Shown here piece by piece: positions 569-18,000 of a stretch of DNA of 18,000 nt (the first letter of the stretch is position 1; each line of letters begins with the position of its first letter). The stretch spans positions 1 through 18,000 of the forward strand of contig JBBSJT010000045.1 of NCBI GenBank assembly GCA_038257035.1, written 5' to 3'. The stretch is from Chlamydiia bacterium (lineage in GTDB: Bacteria; Chlamydiota; Chlamydiia; Chlamydiales; Parachlamydiaceae). A program made the translations under genes and the position numbers. The notes beneath the pieces are model-generated. The model was not told the origin of the DNA. It worked only from the letters and a program-made list of their open reading frames with translations, and made no database searches.

Positions 569-1150
569 TTAAACGTATTTGAAGGTGTGGCTTACAGTGA
601 TGCTGTCACCATTTTTTATGCCATATGCTTGCAAAGTTAAATCTTCATTAAGATCAGATGATGGAGAATATTGAAAATTATATTTAGACTCCAAAAAGGG
701 TCGTGGTTGATCGTTTGGTGAATAGGTAGTATCTTGACCCAGCATTTGACAGCAGATTTCCATAATTTTTTTCATTTTTGTGTTTTCATCAACAATTAAA
801 ATTCCCCATTTTAAGCCCCCTCTACCATGACCTAAATTGATTTGAACTTTTTCAGCGTTCCCTTTTTCATCGATAAATAATTCTCCAACTCTTTGAATTG
901 TCTCTCTACAAAAAGGACACGGATTTCTATCATCTTTGTAAAAACTGGACCGTCCATCACTTTTCGCTTCAATTAAACAGACGTTATGGTATGTGTGTCC
1001 GCATGTCAATTGTCGTAAATGGCTTGAACTTTCTTCGCAAAGCAAAGGATCAAGGCAAATTGCACATTCTTGTTCTTTTAACGTGTTATAAATATTAATG
1101 GTTGGTAATGGTAATGGAAATGGTAGTTTAGATCCCTCAAAATTATTCAT
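569..1150 (-). CDS. RING-H2 zinc-finger protein with C-terminal ubiquitin-like domain; putative E3-ligase effector
   Basis: C29-x2-C32-x17-C50-x-H52-x2-H55-x2-C58-x19-C78-P-F-C81-R82 is a C3H2C3 RING-H2 pattern. The C-terminal VDENTKMKKIMEICCQMLG...LNEDLTLQAYGIKNGDSITV resembles a beta-grasp Ubl/SUMO-like domain. Confidence 0.85.
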   Translation of the reverse strand: MNNFEGSKLPFPLPLPTINIYNTLKEQECAICLDPLLCEESSSHLRQLTCGHTYHNVCLIEAKSDGRSSFYKDDRNPCPFCRETIQRVGELFIDEKGNAEKVQINLGHGRGGLKWGILIVDENTKMKKIMEICCQMLGQDTTYSPNDQPRPFLESKYNFQYSPSSDLNEDLTLQAYGIKNGDSITVSHTFKYV

Positions 1151-2604: not shown

Positions 2605-2832
2605 TGAGGGAGCTTTTTTTACCGCGAAGAACGCGAAGAAGCGCAAGCTTCGCTGCGGGAAGAAGCGCGAAGAAGCGCGCTTTCGCGCGTGGTGGAAAGG
2701 TATGGTGCTAAAGTAAAAAGACTATAGATTTTTCTCCTTGTTCTTCCTCGCAGCATGAGCTACACTTTCTTCGCGCTTATTCCCGCGCTGCAGCGCGCTT
2801 CTTCGCGGTCTTCGCGGTAAAAAAATCCCTCA
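2605..2832. repeat. Long palindromic element, CGCGAAG type (copy 1); probably also a bidirectional terminator between convergent genes
   Basis: Arms 2614-2644 and 2795-2825 are complementary at 30/31 nt. Inner arms 2655-2674 and 2767-2786 match at 19/20. Outer TGAGGGA/TCCCTCA pair and T7/A7 tracts. GC-rich against an AT-rich background. Confidence 0.9.
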
Positions 2833-2838
2833 TAGTGG

Positions 2839-3873
2839 TCATTCTACAGGGATGAGGCTCTCTTTTAGGCCTTGCTTGTCCAGCTTGACCAACCAAATTT
2901 CATGATCCTGCCTTCCATAACTAATGTAGACAAATCGCTTTGTGGCAATAAATCCACATGGAAAAATGACTTTAACTGGATGCCAGTAGGGGGTATATTC
3001 CTTGCCTTCATAAAATCCTAATGAAATAATTGGTTTGTTGCTAATATTTGTAATTTCAAAGGGTGGTTCTTTATTAAAAGTGTAGGCACCCATAAAGTAA
3101 TGGGGGATTTTTTGTCCCTTGGAGTGAACCGTCGACATATTCATTGAACTGTGAAAAAATGCAAGGTACTCATCTCCATCAAGAATAGCGGGGGTACCGC
3201 CTCGAAGTTCGCCAAAATCCCAAGACACATTCGAATGTGTGCAACTTATGGTTGTTGCCTCATTGGAGCAAGGAATAGGATATAAAATTTTGTGTTCTTG
3301 CAAACTATAGGCCATTAAAAGATATCCATCATAATCAAATGGAACCCAATTTTTTTCTCTTCTATGTTTATTCTCACCTTCAAAATGCAAAATAGCGTCT
3401 GTGTTTCCAATTCCGATGGTTTCGTTATCAATAAAAATCTCTGTTATATACATCCTAAAACCCGAAGTGCACACCAATTCATCTCTGTTGTCGCTATAAA
3501 TAAGATAGAGTCTGTTTGCAACTTTAATCAATCTTGCATCCTCAGATTTTGCATTTTCGAAACCAAGGTCAATGATTTGGGGTTCATTTATGGGGTTAAA
3601 ATCAGCATCCAAGAAAATGAGCCCAATTAAGCTCTCCGCCGAAGAACAAAAGGAGTTAGTTTTTGAGTCTTCAGGAATTGTTCTAAAACTTAATAGAATT
3701 TTATTATCCCATTCTATGATAGAAGGATTAAAGGCGTGGGGGTATTCAGGTATCTGAAGTTGTTTTGTCTTTAGAACAAAGCTTGAGGCTTGTTCTTCCA
3801 GGTTTACTTCTGCAAAACCGTTATATGAATAAAAAAGTGAACTGAAAATAAAAGTGATGAGAAAAATATTCAT
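2839..3873 (-). CDS. Exported five-bladed beta-propeller glycoenzyme, GH130/GT91(Bmt)-like (paralogue 3)
   Basis: Signal-like N-terminus (MNIFLITFIFSSLFYSYNGFA). Motifs AFNPSI, EDARL, EKNWVPF, ELRGGTP, FFHS, HYFMGAY, VIFPCG, YGRQD. Confidence 0.7.
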   Translation of the reverse strand: MNIFLITFIFSSLFYSYNGFAEVNLEEQASSFVLKTKQLQIPEYPHAFNPSIIEWDNKILLSFRTIPEDSKTNSFCSSAESLIGLIFLDADFNPINEPQIIDLGFENAKSEDARLIKVANRLYLIYSDNRDELVCTSGFRMYITEIFIDNETIGIGNTDAILHFEGENKHRREKNWVPFDYDGYLLMAYSLQEHKILYPIPCSNEATTISCTHSNVSWDFGELRGGTPAILDGDEYLAFFHSSMNMSTVHSKGQKIPHYFMGAYTFNKEPPFEITNISNKPIISLGFYEGKEYTPYWHPVKVIFPCGFIATKRFVYISYGRQDHEIWLVKLDKQGLKESLIPVE

Positions 3874-3889
3874 GTTAACCTAAAAAAAA

Positions 3890-4963
3890 TTAATTCTGAC
3901 AATCTACCAAGCTATCAAGAAGTTGCTGTTTATCAATTTTGACAATCCACATTTCATGGTCTTGTCGACCGTAGGAGACATAAATAAATGGCTCTTCAAT
4001 AAGGATTCCGCAAGGAAAAACACACCTGACAGATTTCCAATAATGTTTGTAGTAAACACCCTTGTAAAAGCCTTTTCCAACGATGGGCCGAGGACTTATT
4101 TTATTGATTTTAAAAGGGGGGGTTGACGAAAAGGTGTAGGCACCCATAAAATAATGAGGGATACATTTTTTATTTGAGTAAACACTTAAAAGATCAATAG
4201 ATGAATGAAAAAATGAAATGTACTGATCACCATCAAGAACTGCAGGAGTTCCTCCTCTAAGTTCTCCAAATTCCCAATTTAACTTTGGCTCAGTACTTGC
4301 AATAGTTTCACATTTGTTAGTTTTGGGTAGATGCTGAAAAATCGTATGAGGAATCAAGCTGTATGCGAGCATCATGTTGCCATGATAATCAAAAGGAACC
4401 CAATTTTTTTCTCTCAAATAGGGGTTTGCCCCTTCAAATTGTTTTAAGCAATCCGTGTGTACAACGACAAATTGATCGTTTCTATAATCTATTTCTGAGG
4501 TATAAACGCGAAATCCTCCTTTACTGATGTAGTCCTCTTTGTTATCACTATAAACGAGGAAAAGTTTTTCGCCGATCACTATTAACCGTCCGTCTTCAGC
4601 TCTGGAAGGGACAATTGACAAAGGGTCTTGGGTATCAATGATTTGCGGTTTGGTTATTGGGTTAAAATCTTCATCAAGCAAAACAAACCCGATTTGAGAG
4701 TTAAAAGTTAAAAGTGGGCTTGGAATGATGCGAAAACTTAATATCAACATATCTTTGAAGCGGACAATTCCCGGATTAAAAGCATGTTTATATTCATCTA
4801 ATAGAATCCGTTTGGTGTCCATAATGTATGTTTGGCAATTATCCTCCAATTCAATTTCTTCTTGAGGCTTGTTTGACCAAAATAAAGTATTTAAAAAATT
4901 ATTTTCATGAGCAACAGCCACATCAAATATCGTAAGTAGCAAGAATAATATTCTGAATTGCAT
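3890..4963 (-). CDS. Exported five-bladed beta-propeller glycoenzyme, GH130/GT91(Bmt)-like (paralogue 2)
   Basis: Signal-like N-terminus ending AVA. Motifs AFNPGI, EDGRL, EKNWVPF, ELRGGTP, FFHS, HYFMGAY, VFPCG, YGRQD. Confidence 0.7.
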   Translation of the reverse strand: MQFRILFLLLTIFDVAVAHENNFLNTLFWSNKPQEEIELEDNCQTYIMDTKRILLDEYKHAFNPGIVRFKDMLILSFRIIPSPLLTFNSQIGFVLLDEDFNPITKPQIIDTQDPLSIVPSRAEDGRLIVIGEKLFLVYSDNKEDYISKGGFRVYTSEIDYRNDQFVVVHTDCLKQFEGANPYLREKNWVPFDYHGNMMLAYSLIPHTIFQHLPKTNKCETIASTEPKLNWEFGELRGGTPAVLDGDQYISFFHSSIDLLSVYSNKKCIPHYFMGAYTFSSTPPFKINKISPRPIVGKGFYKGVYYKHYWKSVRCVFPCGILIEEPFIYVSYGRQDHEMWIVKIDKQQLLDSLVDCQN

Positions 4964-4974
4964 TTAAAGCCCCT

Positions 4975-5979
4975 TTATAATCTGTCCAAACTCTTTAAAA
5001 GAGCCGCTCTATCCATAGTTACAATCCAAATCTCATGATCCTGTCTTCCATAGGCTACAAAGATGTGTTGATCATCAAAAATAAACCCACCAGGAAAAAC
5101 AACCCTTAGAGGTTTCCACGTTTTATGTGATGGACCATTATAGAAATTTTTTCCGATGATCGGTTTTTTACTGATCGATTTAATTGCATGGGGAGCATCT
5201 TTTTCAAAAGTGTATGCCCCCATGAAGTAGTGGGGAATTCTCTTTCCATCGGATTGCACTGTTTTCATCTCTTTTGCTGAATGAAAAAAAGAGAGATATT
5301 CATCCCCGACAAGAAATGCTTGTGAGCCACCCCTTAGTTCTCCATATTTCCATGGAGCTTTATTTACAGTTGAACCTTGAGTTTCACATCGATTTTCAAA
5401 TGCAATAGGTTTTAAAATTGTGTGTGGTTGAAGGGAATAGATTAACATTAATTGATCTTCATAAACAAAAGGTGTCCAATTTTTTTCATGACGACTTTTA
5501 TTTTCCTGATCAAAATTGTTAAGAACTTCAGGATTTTCAATGTAAAATCTTTTTCCATCAAATTCCATTTTTCCAATCAACATGCGTCTAAAGCCTTTTC
5601 TTGCTGAACCCAACATATCATTATAAACCATGAATAGCTCATCGCCGATAGTAATAATTCTTGGATCTTGCGCCATAGATTGGCCAGATATTTGATTTCT
5701 TATTTCGACAACGTAGGGTTTTGAGATTGGCTTAAACTTATTATCAAGTTCAATTAAACCTATTTGATTTGTCGTTTTAGAAAGGGGATCGCGTATTCTA
5801 AATACAAGCAAAATAGAATCCTGATAGCGCACAATTGATGGATTGAAAGCATCAGGATATTTTGGAATATGAATTTGCTTTGTATCTAAAATAAATGGAT
5901 CGGGATTTTCTTCCAAATCAATAACTGTTGAAAATAAAAAATTAAAAAATGACAAAAATAATAAAATTAAGTATTTCAA
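4975..5979 (-). CDS. Exported five-bladed beta-propeller glycoenzyme, GH130/GT91(Bmt)-like (paralogue 1)
   Basis: TTG start and signal-like N-terminus MKYLILLFLSFFNFLFS. Motifs AFNPSI, QDPRI, EKNWTPF, ELRGGSQ, FFHS, HYFMGAY, VVFPGG, YGRQD. Confidence 0.7.
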   Translation of the reverse strand: MKYLILLFLSFFNFLFSTVIDLEENPDPFILDTKQIHIPKYPDAFNPSIVRYQDSILLVFRIRDPLSKTTNQIGLIELDNKFKPISKPYVVEIRNQISGQSMAQDPRIITIGDELFMVYNDMLGSARKGFRRMLIGKMEFDGKRFYIENPEVLNNFDQENKSRHEKNWTPFVYEDQLMLIYSLQPHTILKPIAFENRCETQGSTVNKAPWKYGELRGGSQAFLVGDEYLSFFHSAKEMKTVQSDGKRIPHYFMGAYTFEKDAPHAIKSISKKPIIGKNFYNGPSHKTWKPLRVVFPGGFIFDDQHIFVAYGRQDHEIWIVTMDRAALLKSLDRL

Positions 5980-8833: not shown

Positions 8834-8854
8834 CGTTCAAAAGTAACTTTGTTC

Positions 8855-8898
8855 TTAACACCGAGACCACAGAAGAGAACTACAGAGAGGTATGAGAA
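8855..8898 (+). repeat. Solo arm of the CACAGAG/CACCGAG-type palindromic element
   Basis: TTAACACCGAGACCACAGAAG closely matches the reverse complement of 13357-13376 (TTAACACCGAGATCACAAAG). No partner arm nearby. Confidence 0.6.
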
Positions 8899-8951: not shown

Positions 8952-9107
8952 CATTTTTTTGACCGCGAAGACCGCGAACAAAGACGCGAAGAAACGCGAA
9001 GAAGCGCACTGTCGTGCGAAAATTGAGGCTTTTTTTCTTATCGCGCTTTAGCGCGCTTCTTCGCGTTTCTTCGCGTCTTTCTTCGCGGTCTTCGCGGTGA
9101 AAAAATG
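8952..9107. repeat. Long palindromic element, CGCGAAG type (copy 2)
   Basis: Arms 8962-9007 and 9053-9098 are complementary at 45/46 nt and flanked by CAT7 / A6TG. Same terminal sequence as 2605-2832. Confidence 0.92.
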
Positions 9108-9869: not shown

Positions 9870-10301
9870 ATGCGCCAATTAAATAATTATTTTGCTCGTA
9901 TGGCATCTTGTGCTTTCATATTATCTTTTGGCCTTAATTCTTTAAGTGCCGAAGAAATAACCAAAGGTGGCCATCATGGCGGCGGTCATCATGGTAGTCA
10001 TCATGAACATCATGGTCATAATCATGGTCATCACGGACATCTTCATGGCGAACACCAAAGTGAACATCATAATCATCATCATAACTATCACGGTGAACAT
10101 CGTGGCTATTGGAAAGATGCCGACTACAACGTTAATGAACCATCCCTCTATTATCAGACCCCTCAAACTGTAGTCGTTCCGGGTTCCACAACTGCAACAC
10201 CTCAAAAACCTGTCAATTATTATTACACGCAACCTGCGATACAAACTACTACACCTCAAACACAAACAACTGTCCCATCATCAACCAGCACCCCAAAATA
10301 A
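9870..10301 (+). CDS. Secreted histidine-rich, Thr/Pro/Gln-rich low-complexity protein
   Basis: SD GGAGG and a signal peptide ending LSA-EE. 22 His in a 43-residue tract, followed by a T/P/Q-rich tail. Confidence 0.8.
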   Translation: MRQLNNYFARMASCAFILSFGLNSLSAEEITKGGHHGGGHHGSHHEHHGHNHGHHGHLHGEHQSEHHNHHHNYHGEHRGYWKDADYNVNEPSLYYQTPQTVVVPGSTTATPQKPVNYYYTQPAIQTTTPQTQTTVPSSTSTPK

Positions 10302-10329: not shown

Positions 10330-10434
10330 TTTTTTACCAGTGAGTCAGTGAGAAAGACATGAGATCAATGAGGGGTTGGAATTCATAGCCCCTCACTGAT
10401 CTCATGTCTTTCTCACTGACTCATTGGTAAAAAA
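10330..10434. repeat. Long palindromic element, CAGTGAG type; probably also a bidirectional terminator between convergent genes
   Basis: Arms 10330-10375 and 10389-10434 are complementary at 44/46 nt, with a 13-nt loop and T6/A7 ends. Confidence 0.92.
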
Positions 10435-10527: not shown

Positions 10528-11847
10528 TCAGAGTAGAGTACCCTGTAGGATGAAGTAGGAAATAGTAAAGTAAATGATCACACCCGTCACATCAACAAGC
10601 GTTGCAACAAAGGGCGCAGATGAGGTCGCAGGATCTAATCCCAAAGCCTTTAAAATGATCGGCAGCATAGAACCGGTAATTGTTCCCCAAAGCACAATTC
10701 CGACTAAGGTGACACCAACGGAAGTGGCAATAAGAGTTGATTCAAGACCATATATGTCTGAAAAATGTCCCCACACCGCAATGCGCAAAAAGCCGATGAA
10801 CCCAAGGACTAAACCCAAAAAGATTCCTGCATAGATTTCTCTTTGCATAATCTTCCACCAATCTTTAATTGTCACCTCTCCTAAAGCCAAAGCTCTAATA
10901 ATAAGGGATGAGGCTTGTGAACCTGAATTTCCACCGCTTGAAATAACGAGAGGCAAAAATAGGGTTAATACAACCGCTTTTTCAATTTCAACCTGATAAA
11001 AAGCCATAGCTGATGCAGTTAAGGTTTGACCAAGAAAAAGAACAGCCAGCCAACCCACGCGTTTTTGCATCAATTCAAAAAATGGGGTTGCCATATATGG
11101 AGCATCCAAGGCTTCACTACCCCCGATTTTTTGTATGTCTTCAGTAAATTCTTCTTCGACTACCATTAAAATATCATCGATTGTTACAATTCCTAAAAGA
11201 ACCCCTTTATCATCGATAACGGGAAGAGCATTACGATTATAGTTTTGGAATGCGTTACTTGCGACTTCCTGATCATCGGTAGCATACACCGAGATGACCT
11301 TATAATCAGAAAGCGTTGAGACCTTGGCTTCCGGCTGTGCAAAAAGAAAATCTTTTAGAAGAATGTCGTCTATCAAAACTCCTTGATTATCAATCACATA
11401 AAGAACCGAGATAGTTTCGCTGTAATGACCAAATTTTCTGACATGTTCCAATACATCAGAAACGGTCCAATTAAGTTTTATACTGATGTAATCGGTGGTC
11501 ATTAGACGGCCAACACTGTTTTCCGGGTAGCCTAAAAGTTGTAGTGTAACAACCCGTTCTGAGGGTGATAGTAATTGTAAAAGTTCTTTTAAAATTTTAC
11601 TTGGCAGCTCTTCTAAAAATGAAGTTCGATCATCCGGAGATAAATTATTTAATAGCTTGGCTGCATCTTCAACAGGCAAAGCGTCAAGGAACTTTTTTTG
11701 AAAGTGAAAGGGAAGGAATTCAAAAACAGTGGTGGCAGTATCGGGGGGTAAAGATTTATAAATTATTTGACGATCATCATCATTAGATTGTTCGATTAAT
11801 TCGACAATTTCAACAGCAGAAAAGTTTTTAAGATCTACATCGTACAT
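10528..11847 (-). CDS. mgtE: Magnesium transporter MgtE
   Basis: N-domain (PDDR), YPENSVGRLMT, CBS pair, and TM domain with GGNSGSQ and DPATSSAPFVATLVDVTG. Confidence 0.95.
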   Translation of the reverse strand: MYDVDLKNFSAVEIVELIEQSNDDDRQIIYKSLPPDTATTVFEFLPFHFQKKFLDALPVEDAAKLLNNLSPDDRTSFLEELPSKILKELLQLLSPSERVVTLQLLGYPENSVGRLMTTDYISIKLNWTVSDVLEHVRKFGHYSETISVLYVIDNQGVLIDDILLKDFLFAQPEAKVSTLSDYKVISVYATDDQEVASNAFQNYNRNALPVIDDKGVLLGIVTIDDILMVVEEEFTEDIQKIGGSEALDAPYMATPFFELMQKRVGWLAVLFLGQTLTASAMAFYQVEIEKAVVLTLFLPLVISSGGNSGSQASSLIIRALALGEVTIKDWWKIMQREIYAGIFLGLVLGFIGFLRIAVWGHFSDIYGLESTLIATSVGVTLVGIVLWGTITGSMLPIILKALGLDPATSSAPFVATLVDVTGVIIYFTISYFILQGTLL

Positions 11848-13391
11848 TTTAATAACATCTCGTTAATATGTTCCGCCTCTATTACCCATCCTCCGCCAAG
11901 GGCTTTGTATAGGTTTATCAAAGAGGAAAAGCTGTTAGCTTCCGTATCTGCAAGCAATAGTTGAGATTCAAATAATCTTCTTTCCGCATCCAACACATTC
12001 AAATAATCGCTTTGACCATTACTATATTGAAGAGTGGCAAGCTGCCTGTATCGCTCAAAAATTTTCACTTGTTTTGTTTGCTCAATAACAAGTTCTAAAT
12101 TCATTTTATGAGATATAAGAGCATCATTAACTTCTTTTAATGCATTTAATATAGTTTGGCAATAGATATATACCGTCTCAGATTTAACTGATTTTGCAAG
12201 CTCAAACTGTGAAATAAGTCTTCCGCCTGTAAAAATGGGCTGAAATAAATTTGCAGAAGTTGCCCATGTAACTGCATTTCCGGTAAATAAATTACACAGA
12301 TGTGAACTTTGATTTCCATACATTCCAGTTAGAGTGATATCTGGAAAAAACTCTGCCCTTGCCTCTCCGATCCTGTAATTTGCTGCGATAATGGCATCTT
12401 CAGCTCGTTGAATATCAGGTCTTTGCCAAAGAAGATCAGAGGGCAGGCCAACAGGAATATTTGGAGGCATGACTAGCGCATTCAAGATTTTACCTCTCGG
12501 AATAGAGGTTGGTGCCATTCCAACTAAAACACTGATCAGATTTTCTTGAACAGGAATTGTTATTTCAAGACGTTTGATGGCAATAATTGCCGTTTCTGTT
12601 TCAGATTGGGCTTGTTTATATTCAAGCTCCGAAGTAAATCCACTCTCAAACCTCAATTTTGCAATACGTTCTGATTCAAGCCTTGTTTTTAAGGTGTTTT
12701 TAGAGATCTCTAATTGTTTGTCCAACTTTCTTAAATTCACGTACGAATCGGCAATAGCAGATACCAATGTTAGTATTACCGTTCTTTTTACTTCAATTTG
12801 GGCAAGATAATCATAATAAGCCGCATCGGATCTATTTTTAATTTTACCCCAGATGTCAAGCTCATATGCTGCGCTAATAGTCGCAGAGTAAACATTAAAG
12901 CGCCTATATTCGGGAAGAAGGGGAGGAACTGTTGCAAGCGATAATTGTTGCCGCGTTTTGTTAAGCTCTCCTCCAACTTGCGGGAAAAGGTTGCTTGAAA
13001 CAACTCCTAGGATTGCTCGGTATTGGGCAACTCTTGCGATGGCAATTTTTATGTCATAATTGTTACCCAAAGCCGTGATGATTAAATCATCTAGCACCTC
13101 ATCGTGGAACTGCTCCCACCATTTGATGTTTGCTGTCTTACAAACAAATTCTTGTGGCGTCGCATTTTGTAACTCGACTCGATAATTATCGGGTATATCA
13201 ATCCTTGGCGGGCAATATTTCGGCGCCAAATTACATGATGAGAGGAGAGAAAGTGAGAGAAACAGAAGTTTGTTTATTATAACTTTTTTCTTTAACACAG
13301 AGGACACAGAGAAAAGAGAGAGAGGAAAATAAGTTTCTCTTATTTCTCTTCGCTGTCTTTGTGATCTCGGTGTTAAAAAAAAACTATTCAT
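11835..13391 (-). CDS. Outer-membrane efflux lipoprotein (OprM/NodT/TolC family); start uncertain
   Basis: Lipobox LLSSC-NLAP and motifs WWEQF, YELDIWG, GLPSDLLWQRPDI, FFPDITLTG, YLNVLDAER, LYKALGGGW. ATG 13391 overlaps the RND stop. An alternative GTG lies at 13298. The track start at 13463 is probably too long. Confidence 0.9.
   Translation of the reverse strand: MNSFFLTPRSQRQRREIRETYFPLSLFSVSSVLKKKVIINKLLFLSLSLLSSCNLAPKYCPPRIDIPDNYRVELQNATPQEFVCKTANIKWWEQFHDEVLDDLIITALGNNYDIKIAIARVAQYRAILGVVSSNLFPQVGGELNKTRQQLSLATVPPLLPEYRRFNVYSATISAAYELDIWGKIKNRSDAAYYDYLAQIEVKRTVILTLVSAIADSYVNLRKLDKQLEISKNTLKTRLESERIAKLRFESGFTSELEYKQAQSETETAIIAIKRLEITIPVQENLISVLVGMAPTSIPRGKILNALVMPPNIPVGLPSDLLWQRPDIQRAEDAIIAANYRIGEARAEFFPDITLTGMYGNQSSHLCNLFTGNAVTWATSANLFQPIFTGGRLISQFELAKSVKSETVYIYCQTILNALKEVNDALISHKMNLELVIEQTKQVKIFERYRQLATLQYSNGQSDYLNVLDAERRLFESQLLLADTEANSFSSLINLYKALGGGWVIEAEHINEMLLKCTM
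13291..13377. repeat. Palindromic element, CACAGAG type, lying in the 5' coding region of the OMF gene
   Basis: TTTAACACAGAGGACACAGAGAAA (13291-13314) pairs at 19/24 with 13354-13377. TTAA occurs at 13292-13295 and 13373-13376. Confidence 0.75.
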
Positions 13392-16300
13392 TTTTAGAAG
13401 CCTCTTTTTTAGTGAAGAGTTCACCAATGATTTTATAAAAAAGTGGCACAAAGAAGATGGCAAGAAAGGTAGCCGAAATCATCCCGCCTAAAACTCCCGT
13501 TCCAACAGAAATACGGCTTGCAGAACCAGCACCAGAGCTTAAAACAAGAGGGATCACACCAAAAATAAAAGTTAAAGAAGTCATGAGAATGGCACGGAAG
13601 CGCAATGTTGCCGCCTCAACTGCTGCATCGGCATACGATAATCCTTGGGCGTGCTTTTCTGATGCAAATTCCACGATTAATATGGCATTTTTCGCAGAAA
13701 GGGCAATTAAAGTGACAAGTCCGATTTGAAAATAGATATCATTGCTTAAATTGGCAACATAGATGGCAGCAAAGGCTCCAAAAATTCCAAATGGGACAGC
13801 CATTATAATAGATAACGGTGTTGCCCAATTTTCGTAAAGTGCAGCTAAAATCAAAAAGACCATGATTAGACCAAGTAGTAAAACTTTATTGGAAGAGCCT
13901 CCTGTTTTGCTTTCCTGATAACTCTCTCCACTAAATGAAAAACTCATGCCTTCAGGCAAAACTTCACTCGCAACTTCTTTTAACGCTTCCATAGCTTCTC
14001 CGGAGCTATAACCCGTGTTTGCATTCCCGGTAACTCTTGCGGCAGGAAACCCATTAAAGCGACTCACCAAGATGGGTCCCTTGACCATACGTATAGCCAC
14101 AAGGGACTTTAAAGGAATCATCACCCCTGTATCTGAACGTACGTAAATCTCTCCGATGTCTTCGGGTCGACTTCTATATTCAGGTTCAGCTTGCAGCATC
14201 ACCCTATATACTTTTCCGAATTTATTGAAACTATTTACATAAAGTGAGCCTAAAAGTACTTGAAGTGACTGATAAACATCATCGATTGGTACATTTAATG
14301 AAACGGCCTTAACACGATCAAGATCAATATAGAGCTGTTTTGCGTTTGTATCGATTGTTGTGTTGAGATTAATAAGTTCGGGTCTTGTAGAAGCTTTTGC
14401 AATGAATTGTTCGGTGATATTTTGCAAAGTGGATATATTGCCGGTACCTCGATTCTCAATCCAGAATTCAAAACCTCCAACCGTGCCTAAGCCCTGAATC
14501 GAAGGAGGCATAAATGGAAGTACAAGAGCATTGGGTAATTGCATAAATTTTGCGCCTAAATTTTTTAAAACATTGTCAGCTTGTAAAGCGGTTTTTGTAC
14601 GCTCAGACCAATCTTTTAAAATAATAAAGTAACTTCCCGCATTAGTTTTATTAATACCTTCAAGCAAACTGTAGCCGGTAATAGAAACCAAATCCTGAAC
14701 CGCAGGGTTTTGTTTTACAATCTCTTCGATCTGATTTGTAACTTTTGCAGTTCGCGACAGGCTTGCGCTATCCGGCAAAATGGCAACAGCCATCACATAG
14801 CCTTGATCTTCTACGGGCACAAAACTTGTTGGAATGGTGTAATTTAACAAGGCGATAAGTCCAAGAAGAAGCGCAAACAAAGACAGAGCAATTGCTGTCC
14901 TTGCAAGCAGCCACCTTACAAGTTTAATATAATAGGATGTGACATTATCAAGTCCACGATTAAACCAAAGTGCAAATCGTGAAGGGTTGTAGTTTTTTTT
15001 AATCAAAAATGTCGCAAGCGCCGGACTTAAAGTCAAAGCAACAATACCTGAAATAATAACCGAAATAACGATTGTGATGGCAAATTGTTTATAAAGTTGA
15101 CCTGCAATTCCTCCAAGAATGGTAACCGGCAAAAACACAGCTAAAAGAACAAAGACAATGGCAATTATTGGGCCCGTTACCTCTTCCATCGCTTTTTTTG
15201 CAGCATCGACTGGTGATAATCCATGTTCTCTGATATTGCGTTCCACGTTTTCTATGACAACGATCGCATCATCAACAACAATACCAATGGCAAGTACAAG
15301 TCCAAAAAGAGTGAGCGTGTTGACAGACATTCCAAGTAAGTACATTCCTGCAAAAGTTCCAATGATCGATACGACAAGAGCAATCACCGGAATAATGGTT
15401 GATCTAAGACTTTGCAAGAAGACAAAAACTACGAGAATAACAAGAAGAGTCGCTTCGATGATTGTATTCCTGACTTCATGAATGGAAGCATTCACAAATT
15501 TAGTGATATTATAGGGGATGGAATATTCAAGGCCTGCAGGAAACCTTTTTTCTAATTGAATCATCGTATTTTGTATCTGATCCGCAACATCCAAGGCATT
15601 GGCACCATACTGTTGATAAACTGCAATTAAAGTTGTCGCCCTGCCATTCAGCTCTCCTATCACATCATAACTTTGGGCACCAAGTTCTGCTCTTCCAACA
15701 TCTTTTAATAAAACTGTAGATCCATCAGGATTAGCCTTTAAAATAATCTGATCAAAGTCTTGAGGACTAATAAGCCTTCCTTGAGCAGTGACTGGTAAAG
15801 TGAGTTCAACAGGGGATTGATTGGGCTCTTGTCCAATCTGACCCACAGCATATTGAGAATTTTGCTGTCTGATGGCTTTTGCAATGTCTTCTGTTGTTAT
15901 TCCAAGTTGTGCCATGCGATCGGGTTTTAGCCAGATGCGCATGGAATATTCTTTTTCCCCAATCACATTGACATCGCTAACGCCTTTAATTCGTTTAAGC
16001 TCATCAACGATATTAATACTTGCATAGTTGCTTGTAAAAATTTCATTGTAACGGTCTGTTTCTGATTGAATAGCAATAATTAACAAGAAGGTAGGGGATT
16101 GTTTTTTGACCTGTAAACCTTGTCTTTGCACTTCAAGAGGAAGCTCTGCCATCACAAGATTAATTCTATTTTGAACATCGATTTGTGCTTTATCAATGTC
16201 TGTTCCAATCTCAAAGAAAACGTTTAATGTCAAAATGCCGGATGATGCACTTTGTGAATACATGTAAATCATGTTTTCAACGCCATTTATTTGCTGCTCT

Positions 16301-16497
16301 AAAGGTGCTGCGATTGTTTCTGCAATCGTTTCAGCACTTGCACCTGGGTAGGCTGTTGAAATCAGTATTTGCGGAGGGGTGATGCTTGGAAATTGCTCTA
16401 TTGGTAAATTTAATAAGCTGATCAGGCCGACCAAAGTAATGATGATCGAAATGACGCTTGCAAAAACTGGCCTGTCGATAAAGAATTTAGCAATCAT
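13384..16497 (-). CDS. RND multidrug efflux permease, HAE1 (AcrB/MexB-like)
   Basis: 1037 aa with motifs FFIDRPVFA, GIVVDDAIVVIENVER, SAKNAILIVEFA and RFRAILMTS; proton-relay residues intact. Confidence 0.96.
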   Translation of the reverse strand: MIAKFFIDRPVFASVISIIITLVGLISLLNLPIEQFPSITPPQILISTAYPGASAETIAETIAAPLEQQINGVENMIYMYSQSASSGILTLNVFFEIGTDIDKAQIDVQNRINLVMAELPLEVQRQGLQVKKQSPTFLLIIAIQSETDRYNEIFTSNYASINIVDELKRIKGVSDVNVIGEKEYSMRIWLKPDRMAQLGITTEDIAKAIRQQNSQYAVGQIGQEPNQSPVELTLPVTAQGRLISPQDFDQIILKANPDGSTVLLKDVGRAELGAQSYDVIGELNGRATTLIAVYQQYGANALDVADQIQNTMIQLEKRFPAGLEYSIPYNITKFVNASIHEVRNTIIEATLLVILVVFVFLQSLRSTIIPVIALVVSIIGTFAGMYLLGMSVNTLTLFGLVLAIGIVVDDAIVVIENVERNIREHGLSPVDAAKKAMEEVTGPIIAIVFVLLAVFLPVTILGGIAGQLYKQFAITIVISVIISGIVALTLSPALATFLIKKNYNPSRFALWFNRGLDNVTSYYIKLVRWLLARTAIALSLFALLLGLIALLNYTIPTSFVPVEDQGYVMAVAILPDSASLSRTAKVTNQIEEIVKQNPAVQDLVSITGYSLLEGINKTNAGSYFIILKDWSERTKTALQADNVLKNLGAKFMQLPNALVLPFMPPSIQGLGTVGGFEFWIENRGTGNISTLQNITEQFIAKASTRPELINLNTTIDTNAKQLYIDLDRVKAVSLNVPIDDVYQSLQVLLGSLYVNSFNKFGKVYRVMLQAEPEYRSRPEDIGEIYVRSDTGVMIPLKSLVAIRMVKGPILVSRFNGFPAARVTGNANTGYSSGEAMEALKEVASEVLPEGMSFSFSGESYQESKTGGSSNKVLLLGLIMVFLILAALYENWATPLSIIMAVPFGIFGAFAAIYVANLSNDIYFQIGLVTLIALSAKNAILIVEFASEKHAQGLSYADAAVEAATLRFRAILMTSLTFIFGVIPLVLSSGAGSASRISVGTGVLGGMISATFLAIFFVPLFYKIIGELFTKKEASKNE

Positions 16498-17677: not shown

Positions 17678-17702
17678 TATAAATTTTTTTAATAATTATT
17701 TT

Positions 17703-17917
17703 GGGGTCAGGCTTTACAGAATTACAGTTTCGTCAAGTATCAATACAGTCATTTCAGAGAAACTGTCATTCTGTCAATCCAGACCCCAATCTCTCATGGT
17801 TTTTTCGTTTTGTTTGGCTTAAAAAGGGTCTGTGGGGTCTGGATTGAAAATATGACAGTTTCTGTTCTTGAAGGTATAAAACTTGAACGTAACTGTCATA
17901 TTGTAAAGCCTGACCCC
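17703..17917. repeat. REP/MITE-like doublet: two inverted ~85-bp GGGGTC...GACCCC palindromes
   Basis: Unit A is 17703-17787 (arms complementary at 27/31 counting from 17701) and unit B is 17834-17917. B is an inverted, diverged copy of A, including the loop. Confidence 0.88.
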
Positions 17918-18000
17918 ATTGAATTTCTTGAACTCTTATTTGAATTTGCTGTTTGCATTTGTTATAATATTTGTTATATTAAGTTGATGATAAAGAACCA

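What the first reader, a model, noticed from the sequence alone, without database searches (positions are those of the whole stretch)
13281..13391. Palindromic repeat apparently inserted in frame into the OMF lipoprotein signal peptide
Seen: the ATG at 13391 overlaps the RND stop (ATGAATAG) and reads through the palindrome without a stop, putting the lipobox Cys at residue 53. The element is bounded by TTAA at 13292 and 13373, exactly 81 nt (27 codons) apart. Removing it and keeping one TTAA gives MNSFFLKKKVIINKLLFLSLSLLSSC, a normal-length signal with Cys26. The alternative GTG at 13298 lies inside the arm and has only pyrimidine-rich sequence upstream with no SD. Established: Rickettsia palindromic elements insert in frame into coding sequences. 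Inference: this repeat family is mobile and can add peptide sequence, tolerated here because the signal is cleaved. The hairpin may also tune OMF/mgtE expression. TTAA is self-complementary, so it may be part of the arms rather than a target duplication.
Basis: partly seen in the sequence, partly recalled or inferred. Interest (0 to 1): 0.7.

Follow-up and report, generated by a model that had tools for sequence, protein, structure and literature searches.

The report
Hairpin repeat inside swappable signal peptide
One copy of a common hairpin repeat lies in frame just behind the likely start codon of a drug-efflux channel gene in an environmental chlamydia, and close relatives with a 94-95% identical channel carry unrelated export signals at this spot, which suggests that these repeats likely turn this gene junction into a place where the disposable signal peptide is rewritten again and again.

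Summary
Observation confirmed: ATG 13391 overlaps the RND stop, the frame is open through a real hairpin (z -4.85), and the lipobox Cys is residue 53. That ATG is probably the true start. It has a Shine-Dalgarno-like site, and sister lineages keep the same stop/start overlap in frame with 33- and 49-residue signals. The 81-nt TTAA boundary is not supported: TTAA is part of the arm, there is no target duplication, and the predicted empty allele was not found. The hairpin is one of 183 paired copies in this genome, and the only one inside a real gene, so the family is not RPE-like. It belongs to the GxxExxY-nuclease-linked palindromes, which this scan has found many times on other DNA and which my searches did not find in print. 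New here: orthologues 94-95% identical have wholly different signal peptides, some reading like repeat arms in other frames, while neighbouring signal peptides stay 45-90% identical. A relative about 10% divergent in both flanking genes differs by about 2% across the junction, hinting at recombination. Verdict: tolerated in-frame insertion at a remodelling hotspot; new variant of a known kind.

The parts
13294..13374 (.). Hairpin core (AACAC...GTGTT), CACAGAG/AACAC sub-family of the genome-wide palindromes; the shortest paired copy of its sub-family
13284..13383 (.). Hairpin with its T-run and A-run (about 100 nt): minimal extent by family consensus (T-run mostly 8-9 nt); true ends not determined, a weak outer motif lies about 27 nt outside the core
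13292..13295 (.). TTAA at the T-run/core joint of one arm; internal, not a target duplication
13373..13376 (.). TTAA at the T-run/core joint of the other arm
13389..13391 (-). Likely start codon of the OMF gene, overlapping the RND stop
13401..13406 (-). SD-like AAGAGG, 9 nt before the ATG, at the genome's usual SD distance
13384..13386 (-). RND stop codon TAG; the element's T-run begins on the next base
13296..13307 (-). Two in-frame GTG codons (13307, 13298) inside the 3' arm; rival starts without SD
13233..13283 (-). Hydrophobic h-region and lipobox LSSC (Cys53 at 13235-13233)
11835..13391 (-). NodT-family outer-membrane efflux lipoprotein gene (518 aa, TIGR01845 over cut-off)
13384..16497 (-). 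RND permease gene (NF000282, TIGR00915 over cut-off)
13260..13422 (.). Block of low divergence (2 of 122 and 3 of 161 letters) against the relative in runs X2/X3, whose flanking coding DNA differs by 7-12%; 13260 is where the X3 contig ends

Best explanation
The hairpin is a gene-less copy of a genome-wide palindrome family that is likely derived from elements carrying a GxxExxY nuclease gene; it sits one base after the RND stop and therefore inside the overlapping OMF gene, is likely translated from ATG 13391 as roughly 27-33 extra residues of the signal peptide's n-region, and likely survives because that peptide is predicted to be cut off at Cys53. Steps. Shown: family membership, position, open frame, intact h-region and lipobox, rarity in coding DNA, and different signal peptides in sister lineages. 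Inferred: use of the ATG; cleavage; origin from GxxExxY elements; and that the junction is a hotspot, where repeats arrive, decay and are replaced together with flanking bases, probably by recombination between related strains, with selection keeping only versions that stay in frame and keep an h-region. The copy is a filtered accident, not a peptide-donating element by design.
For: Family: 339 strict ends against 0 in an 800-kb Markov control; 183 paired copies; 255 pattern matches against 0 reversed controls. Nuclease link: the C7 GxxExxY gene lies between 42-nt inverted arms of a sister sub-family; 20 of 30 chlamydial GxxExxY loci have inverted flanks (score >=30), several of the CACAGAG type (L108, L113, L115, L117, L135, L136), against 0 of 19 OMF loci and 7 of 283 genome ORFs; 22 of 23 genomes with a full-length gene have the pattern, against 3 of 18 without (my tally; kin are not independent). 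Position: 85 of 187 element ends facing a gene end lie within -10 to 40 nt of it, against 4 of 123 facing a start (crude ORF calls). Start: SD-like site at the usual distance; opening cost 4.6 against 12.7 kcal/mol for GTG 13298 (-11..+5 window); 6 of 6 sister RND proteins end in K-D-E and the matching OMFs begin M-N-K or M-N-N, the signature of the same overlap, in frame at Cys49 and Cys33 (pairs matched by source and contig length). LspA is present. Hotspot: mature parts 93.8-95.5% identical, 2-5 of 17 pre-lipobox residues identical, while four neighbouring predicted signal peptides keep 9-17/20, 17-18/20, 19-21/25 and 20-21/24; P0001/P0124 and P0003 read like repeat arms in another frame or sub-family (top scores after the window itself among 87 N-termini scored). 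Low-divergence block, Fisher p about 0.001 in each run, in a relative that shares 4 RND substitutions with the sister lineages.
Against: No clean empty allele was found, so the insertion size and ends are unknown. No RNA or protein data. The N-termini of relatives are gene-caller predictions without DNA, and such callers do run through arms (P0159, P0120). The arm-like match in P0122 is weak (score 38 against 31 control) and P0002 shows none and does not begin M-N. Neither GxxExxY gene of this genome is bracketed by AACAC-type arms, and nothing shows that the enzyme moves or cuts the repeats. The X2/X3 evidence rests on short, low-depth contigs from one study; the X3 contig reaches only 24 nt past the arm; a further X2 record (151 nt, depth 2.1) differs at 13 of 100 letters in the h-region; only 40 of 143 differences were listed.
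Confidence: 0.68

Rival explanations
1. The hairpin is effectively intergenic: OMF starts at GTG 13298 (or 13307), giving an ordinary 22-residue lipoprotein signal, helped by ribosomes that finish RND and melt the 5' arm; the open frame from ATG 13391 is chance.
For: GTG 13298 gives a normal-length basic/hydrophobic/lipobox signal (median Cys position about 22 among 87 homologues). The window copy has 3 of 6 frames open anyway. Only 36% of long ORFs here have an SD-like site (477 of 1339). The family avoids coding DNA.
Against: No SD and 12.7 kcal/mol to open, still 9.0 with the 5' arm held open. The overlapping ATG keeps its SD-like site and is in frame in three lineages with different lengths. 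In P0001 the arm is read in another frame, so the arm's GTG would be out of frame there (inferred from the peptide).
Confidence: 0.1
2. The hairpin has been domesticated as an RNA control element that sets OMF/mgtE output (coupling, pausing, RNase III-type processing or stability), and the junction block is conserved by selection on structure.
For: Block 5-fold less divergent than flanks; both differences inside the hairpin in X2/X3 improve pairing (13355, 13359); it sits at the RND/OMF boundary of an operon.
Against: Sister lineages at similar distance lack this allele altogether; the window copy carries the pairing-breaking letters; RND tail and h-region third positions are conserved too, which structure does not need; similar hairpins are at 183 places.
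Confidence: 0.12
3. A classical MITE/RPE-type insertion: an 81-nt element entered a TTAA site with target duplication, and the signal peptides of relatives diverged for unrelated reasons.
For: TTAA on both sides, 27 codons, normal signal after removal. In-frame palindromes in genes are established (PMC2229807, passages).
Against: Family ends read TTAAC, TTACC or TTGAC; the T-runs outside TTAA are conserved; 2-nt duplications outside the T-runs in 14 of 178 copies, near chance; no near-identical copies; predicted empty allele not found.
Confidence: 0.07

Closest known systems
Rickettsia palindromic elements (RPE) and ORF-fused MITEs such as YPAL/RU-2 (PMC2229807, passages; PMC1458961, passages)
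   Same: About 100-nt hairpin repeat in an intracellular bacterium, in frame in a conserved gene, probably neutral; a MITE forming part of a signal peptide (YPO1552) is already described there.
   Different: R. bellii has 53 of 526 RPEs in protein genes; here 1 of 183. Unrelated sequence pattern (T-run plus 8-9-nt units; homology to RPE not tested directly), chlamydial host, link to a GxxExxY gene, and replacement of the whole signal peptide among sister lineages.
Ssn nucleases with NTS/dRS3/SRM hairpin repeats (PMC11893778, passages)
   Same: Small single-domain nuclease gene flanked by the hairpin repeat that is also dispersed in hundreds of copies; repeats reported next to genes with raised inter-strain variability and suggested to serve in recombination.
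   Different: Ssn is GIY-YIG, the repeat about 28 nt; here the gene is GxxExxY (listed as PD-(D/E)XK family PF13366 of unknown function in PMC3424549, one table row; its identity with TIGR04256 is recalled), the repeats are 80-300 nt, and no activity is shown.
REP/REPIN elements with RAYT (recalled; named in earlier scan notes)
   Same: Many gene-less palindromes between genes, near stop codons, and few gene-bearing copies.
   Different: Partner is not a Y1 transposase: 1 of 7 Y1 loci has a family end within 400 nt and none is bracketed.
GxxExxY-linked palindromic repeats noted by this scan (117 findings in at least 112 genomes; unpublished AI notes)
   Same: Same unit type (CACAGAG), same gene link, tested here independently.
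   Different: This copy lies in frame in a signal peptide at a junction that differs between close relatives.

Membership tests
Rickettsia palindromic element (RPE) | Palindromic repeat of about 100-150 nt forming a long stem-loop | tested here: met
   81-nt core, about 100 nt with runs; z -4.85
Rickettsia palindromic element (RPE) | A substantial share of copies fused in frame in protein genes | tested here: not met
   1 real gene among 183 paired copies; 3 ORFs among 405 arms
Rickettsia palindromic element (RPE) | Sequence homology to an RPE family | not tested
   No RPE models at hand; Rfam gave only sub-threshold miRNA hairpin hits
MITE (IS-derived) | Terminal inverted repeats | tested here: met
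MITE (IS-derived) | Target-site duplication | tested here: not met
   TTAA is internal; 2-nt duplication in 14 of 178 copies; true ends uncertain
MITE (IS-derived) | Cognate transposase with the same ends | tested here: inconclusive
   The only gene found between family arms is GxxExxY; no search over all IS families
REP/REPIN-RAYT | Y1 (RAYT) gene flanked by the repeat | tested here: not met
Ssn/SRM | GIY-YIG Ssn gene flanked by the NTS/SRM motif | not tested
   No Ssn search made; the flanked gene found is GxxExxY
GxxExxY-linked palindromes | Arms of the same unit type bracket GxxExxY genes | tested here: met
   CACAGAG-type arms at L108, L113, L115, L117, L135, L136 in relatives; sister sub-families in this genome
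GxxExxY-linked palindromes | The enzyme binds, cuts or spreads the repeat | not testable with these tools
   needs biochemistry
Sec/SPII lipoprotein signal peptide | Basic n-region, hydrophobic h-region, lipobox [LVI][ASTVI][GAS]C (recalled consensus) | tested here: met
   net +6 over residues 1-36, hydropathy peak 2.1, LSSC
Sec/SPII lipoprotein signal peptide | Lipidation and cleavage of the 52-residue signal | not testable with these tools
   LspA gene present; processing not shown

The most novel reading that the evidence does not exclude
GxxExxY-linked hairpins are nuclease-marked recombination hotspots: a cut at the hairpin is repaired from a related strain, so the filled junction spreads homing-style with its flanks, and whole signal-peptide cassettes, partly written by the repeat arms themselves, are swapped between chlamydial lineages while the mature protein stays put.
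Probability: 0.25. Interest if true: 0.78.

Novelty: new variant of a known kind. Interest (0 to 1): 0.47.

Why it matters
An in-frame hairpin in a signal peptide is a known kind of accident. What adds value is the comparison: four or more unrelated signal peptides on a channel that is otherwise 89-95% identical, with traces of different repeat arms, and a junction block that looks exchanged between lineages. That gives a small, concrete locus at which to test how the widespread GxxExxY-linked repeats spread (copying against recombination/homing), a question the scan's earlier notes leave open, and how fast new export signals can be built from repeat DNA.

Tried and rejected
Empty-site search: GTDB holds only two other genomes of the genus, 62-65% identical in OMF, too far for DNA alignment of the junction; the metagenome scan gave one orthologue at 69% (L028) and otherwise distant hits; no contig of runs X1-X5 joins across the element (the two joints listed have 277 and 112 other letters between and are other family copies). 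No RNA holder listed. Rfam: no family at its gathering score. 16S not assembled, so the anti-SD could not be read. RAYT as partner rejected. TTAA or any 2-5 nt duplication rejected. Outer flanks as part of the arms: within-copy flank likeness for the AACAC type 6.7 against 5.9 of 20 between copies, inconclusive. A 14-nt match between G002's OMF start and the window's ATG plus A-run hints at a 90-nt insertion instead, but is A-rich and may be chance. Tat mis-targeting: TatC is present but the R-R pair lacks the recalled consensus context; not pursued. The second ORF-spanned copy (C70, 137 aa) was set aside as a probable spurious ORF without further test. In one search, 87 of 125 OMF proteins were scored; the rest had no lipobox match or under 12 residues before it. 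Literature: 'GxxExxY' in 3 papers (2 listed) and PF13366/PDDEXK_3/TIGR04256 in 2, none on repeats by title or abstract; searches found nothing on these repeats in chlamydiae (listings only); one search gave nothing usable on long lipoprotein signals. Supplements were not read and subscription papers are not covered.

Full report
Observation. On the minus strand an ATG at 13391 overlaps the RND stop (ATGAATAG), the frame runs through the palindrome without a stop, and the first Cys is residue 53. TTAA occurs at 13292 and 13373. The hairpin folds at -32.9 kcal/mol, z -4.85. The genes are an MFP-RND-OMF efflux operon followed by mgtE. Named homologues are Protochlamydia, Parachlamydia and Neochlamydia, so the host is an environmental chlamydia. 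A contig of run X1, which may be the source sample, spans the junction with no difference.

The repeat family. The hairpin is one copy of a large family. A strict pattern finds 339 ends against 0 in an 800-kb control; merging with a profile search gives 405 ends and 183 paired copies in sub-families built on CGCGAAG, CAGTGAG, CGCAAAG and CACAGAG units behind a T-run. The window copy is the shortest paired AACAC/CACAGAG copy. Ends read TTAAC, TTACC or TTGAC, the T-run is mostly 8-9 nt, and 2-nt duplications outside it occur in 14 of 178 copies. So TTAA is internal, the element is at least about 100 nt, and the 27-codon fit does not give the insertion size. A weak outer motif about 20-27 nt beyond the core leaves the true ends open. 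AACAC arms share at most 38 of 50 letters between loci (n=66): no sign of recent exact copying.

Link to GxxExxY. I recalled that such units flank GxxExxY genes and tested it. The genome has two such genes. One lies between 42-nt inverted arms of the CGCGAAG type and is the only GxxExxY-coding interior among the 183 copies; the other has CGCAAAG-type flanks. Among relatives, 20 of 30 GxxExxY loci have inverted flanks (31 given, 1 without a hit), several with CACAGAG arms close to the window's, against 0 of 19 OMF loci and 7 of 283 ORFs. The pattern is in 22 of 23 genomes with a full-length gene and 3 of 18 without (my tally; related genomes are not independent). The two other genomes of the genus have 1 and 0 matches against 255 here. 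Y1 transposase genes are not bracketed. No activity of the enzyme is shown.

Is it an RPE-like family? No. Two of 183 paired copies are spanned by a long ORF, this one and a doubtful 137-aa ORF. Among 405 arms, 3 lie in ORFs with at least 100 other codons; two of these are C-terminal tails. R. bellii has 53 of 526 RPEs in protein genes (PMC1458961, passage). With crude ORF calls, copies hug stop codons (85 of 187 ends within -10 to 40 nt) and avoid starts (4 of 123). The window copy begins one base after the RND stop; because OMF overlaps that stop, it falls inside OMF.

Which start? ATG 13391 has AAGAGG 9 nt upstream, at the genome's usual SD distance, and costs 4.6 kcal/mol to open against 12.4-12.7 for the two GTGs (-11..+5; 11.4 against about 16 for -20..+13). 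Overlap of the OMF start with the RND end is the rule among relatives. All 6 sister RND proteins end in K-D-E and the OMFs on contigs of matching source and length begin M-N-K (Cys49) or M-N-N (Cys33): the same overlap, in frame at three different lengths. Against: the GTG start would give an ordinary signal, 3 of 6 frames of this copy are open anyway, and the relatives' starts are predictions without DNA. I put the ATG at about 85%.

Empty site. None was found. Orthologues 93.8-95.5% identical in the mature part share 2-5 of 17 residues before the lipobox, whereas four neighbouring predicted signal peptides, compared with their close homologues, keep 45-90% and mostly their length. Scoring 87 N-termini against translated arms, the best after the window itself were P0003 (10 of 11 residues identical to a CGCAGAG arm), P0001/P0124 (a 3' arm read in another frame) and P0120 (likely an over-long gene call); P0122's 7-residue match is weak and P0002 has none. 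The junction has thus been rewritten more than once, h-region included.

A mosaic hint. A relative in runs X2 and X3 (one study) has the same hairpin, same frame, no gaps. It differs at 2 of 122 and 3 of 161 letters across the junction, but at 76 of 780 in the same X2 contig's RND part and 7-12% in other pieces (Fisher p about 0.001 each); 27 of 33 listed RND codon changes are synonymous. It shares four RND substitutions with the sister lineages yet has the window's RND tail. One recombination tract explains this most simply; descent with strong constraint is the alternative. Both differences inside the stem improve pairing, so the window's copy looks slightly decayed. Caveats: short low-depth contigs, X3 reaches 24 nt past the arm, a third record differs at 13 of 100 letters in the h-region, and the listing was cut at 40 of 143 rows.

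Mechanism. Shown: family, position, frame, intact h-region and lipobox, LspA gene, variability of the junction. Inferred: translation from the coupled ATG; removal of the 52-residue signal, which makes the extra basic stretch cheap; derivation from GxxExxY elements; turnover by repeat arrival, decay and recombination, filtered for frame and hydrophobicity. The pyrimidine-rich 3' arms translate to Leu/Ser/Phe/Val-rich stretches followed by Lys, which may make them unusually tolerable in signal peptides; this is inference.

Comparison. It works like an RPE or YPAL fusion at this one site (PMC2229807, passages) but fails the family-level test. The nuclease-plus-hairpin layout and the link to variable genes resemble Ssn/dRS3 (PMC11893778, passages), with a different enzyme, listed as of unknown function (PMC3424549, one table row). 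My searches (listings only) found no paper on GxxExxY-linked repeats. The scan itself has noted the family in over 100 genomes and in this one, and other repeats in signal peptides; these are unchecked notes, not support.

Verdict. Real; first reading partly right. New variant of a known kind; interest 0.47, carried by the signal-peptide turnover and the recombination hint rather than by the in-frame insertion.

Noticed in passing
window 2614-2825, 8848-8898, 8955-9105, 10330-10434: Other members of the same superfamily (CGCGAAG, a lone AACAC arm next to a CGCGAAG copy, CAGTGAG), all between genes; no family motif in the 21-kb syntenic locus L028.
   Followed up: partly
window 17702-17918: Four TGGGGTC-tagged arms in nested inverted arrangement upstream of the MFP gene, a different repeat; motif 32 times in the genome against 14 reversed.
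   Followed up: partly
window 569-1150 (-): ORF with a RING-finger-like Cys/His pattern and a ubiquitin-like-looking C-terminus (by eye, recalled motif); eukaryote-like, possibly a host-directed protein.
   Followed up: no
window 2839-5979 (-): Three tandem paralogous genes with predicted signal peptides (direct repeat family D1).
   Followed up: no
window 9870-10301 (+): Small ORF with a predicted signal peptide, a long His-rich run and a Thr/Pro-rich tail; possible metal binder next to mgtE; exact sequence not in the protein collection.
   Followed up: no
G000:C4:22170-23501 and G000:C26:13055-13741: Two ORFs whose last 8-15 residues are coded by a repeat arm.
   Followed up: no
G000:C7:884-933, C37:4744-4787, C110:3432-3770: Copies of one sub-family nested in or truncating another; the family seems to land in its own relatives.
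   Followed up: no
G035: 67 GxxExxY matches in a 1.9-Mb genome, many being identical-scoring C-terminal fragments.
   Followed up: no
P0159: A sister FMN-reductase prediction with a 45-residue N-terminal extension that reads like a 3' arm; probably an over-long gene call.
   Followed up: no
L003 (G001): RND and mgtE matches are each split in two tblastn pieces; frameshifts, insertions or assembly errors.
   Followed up: no
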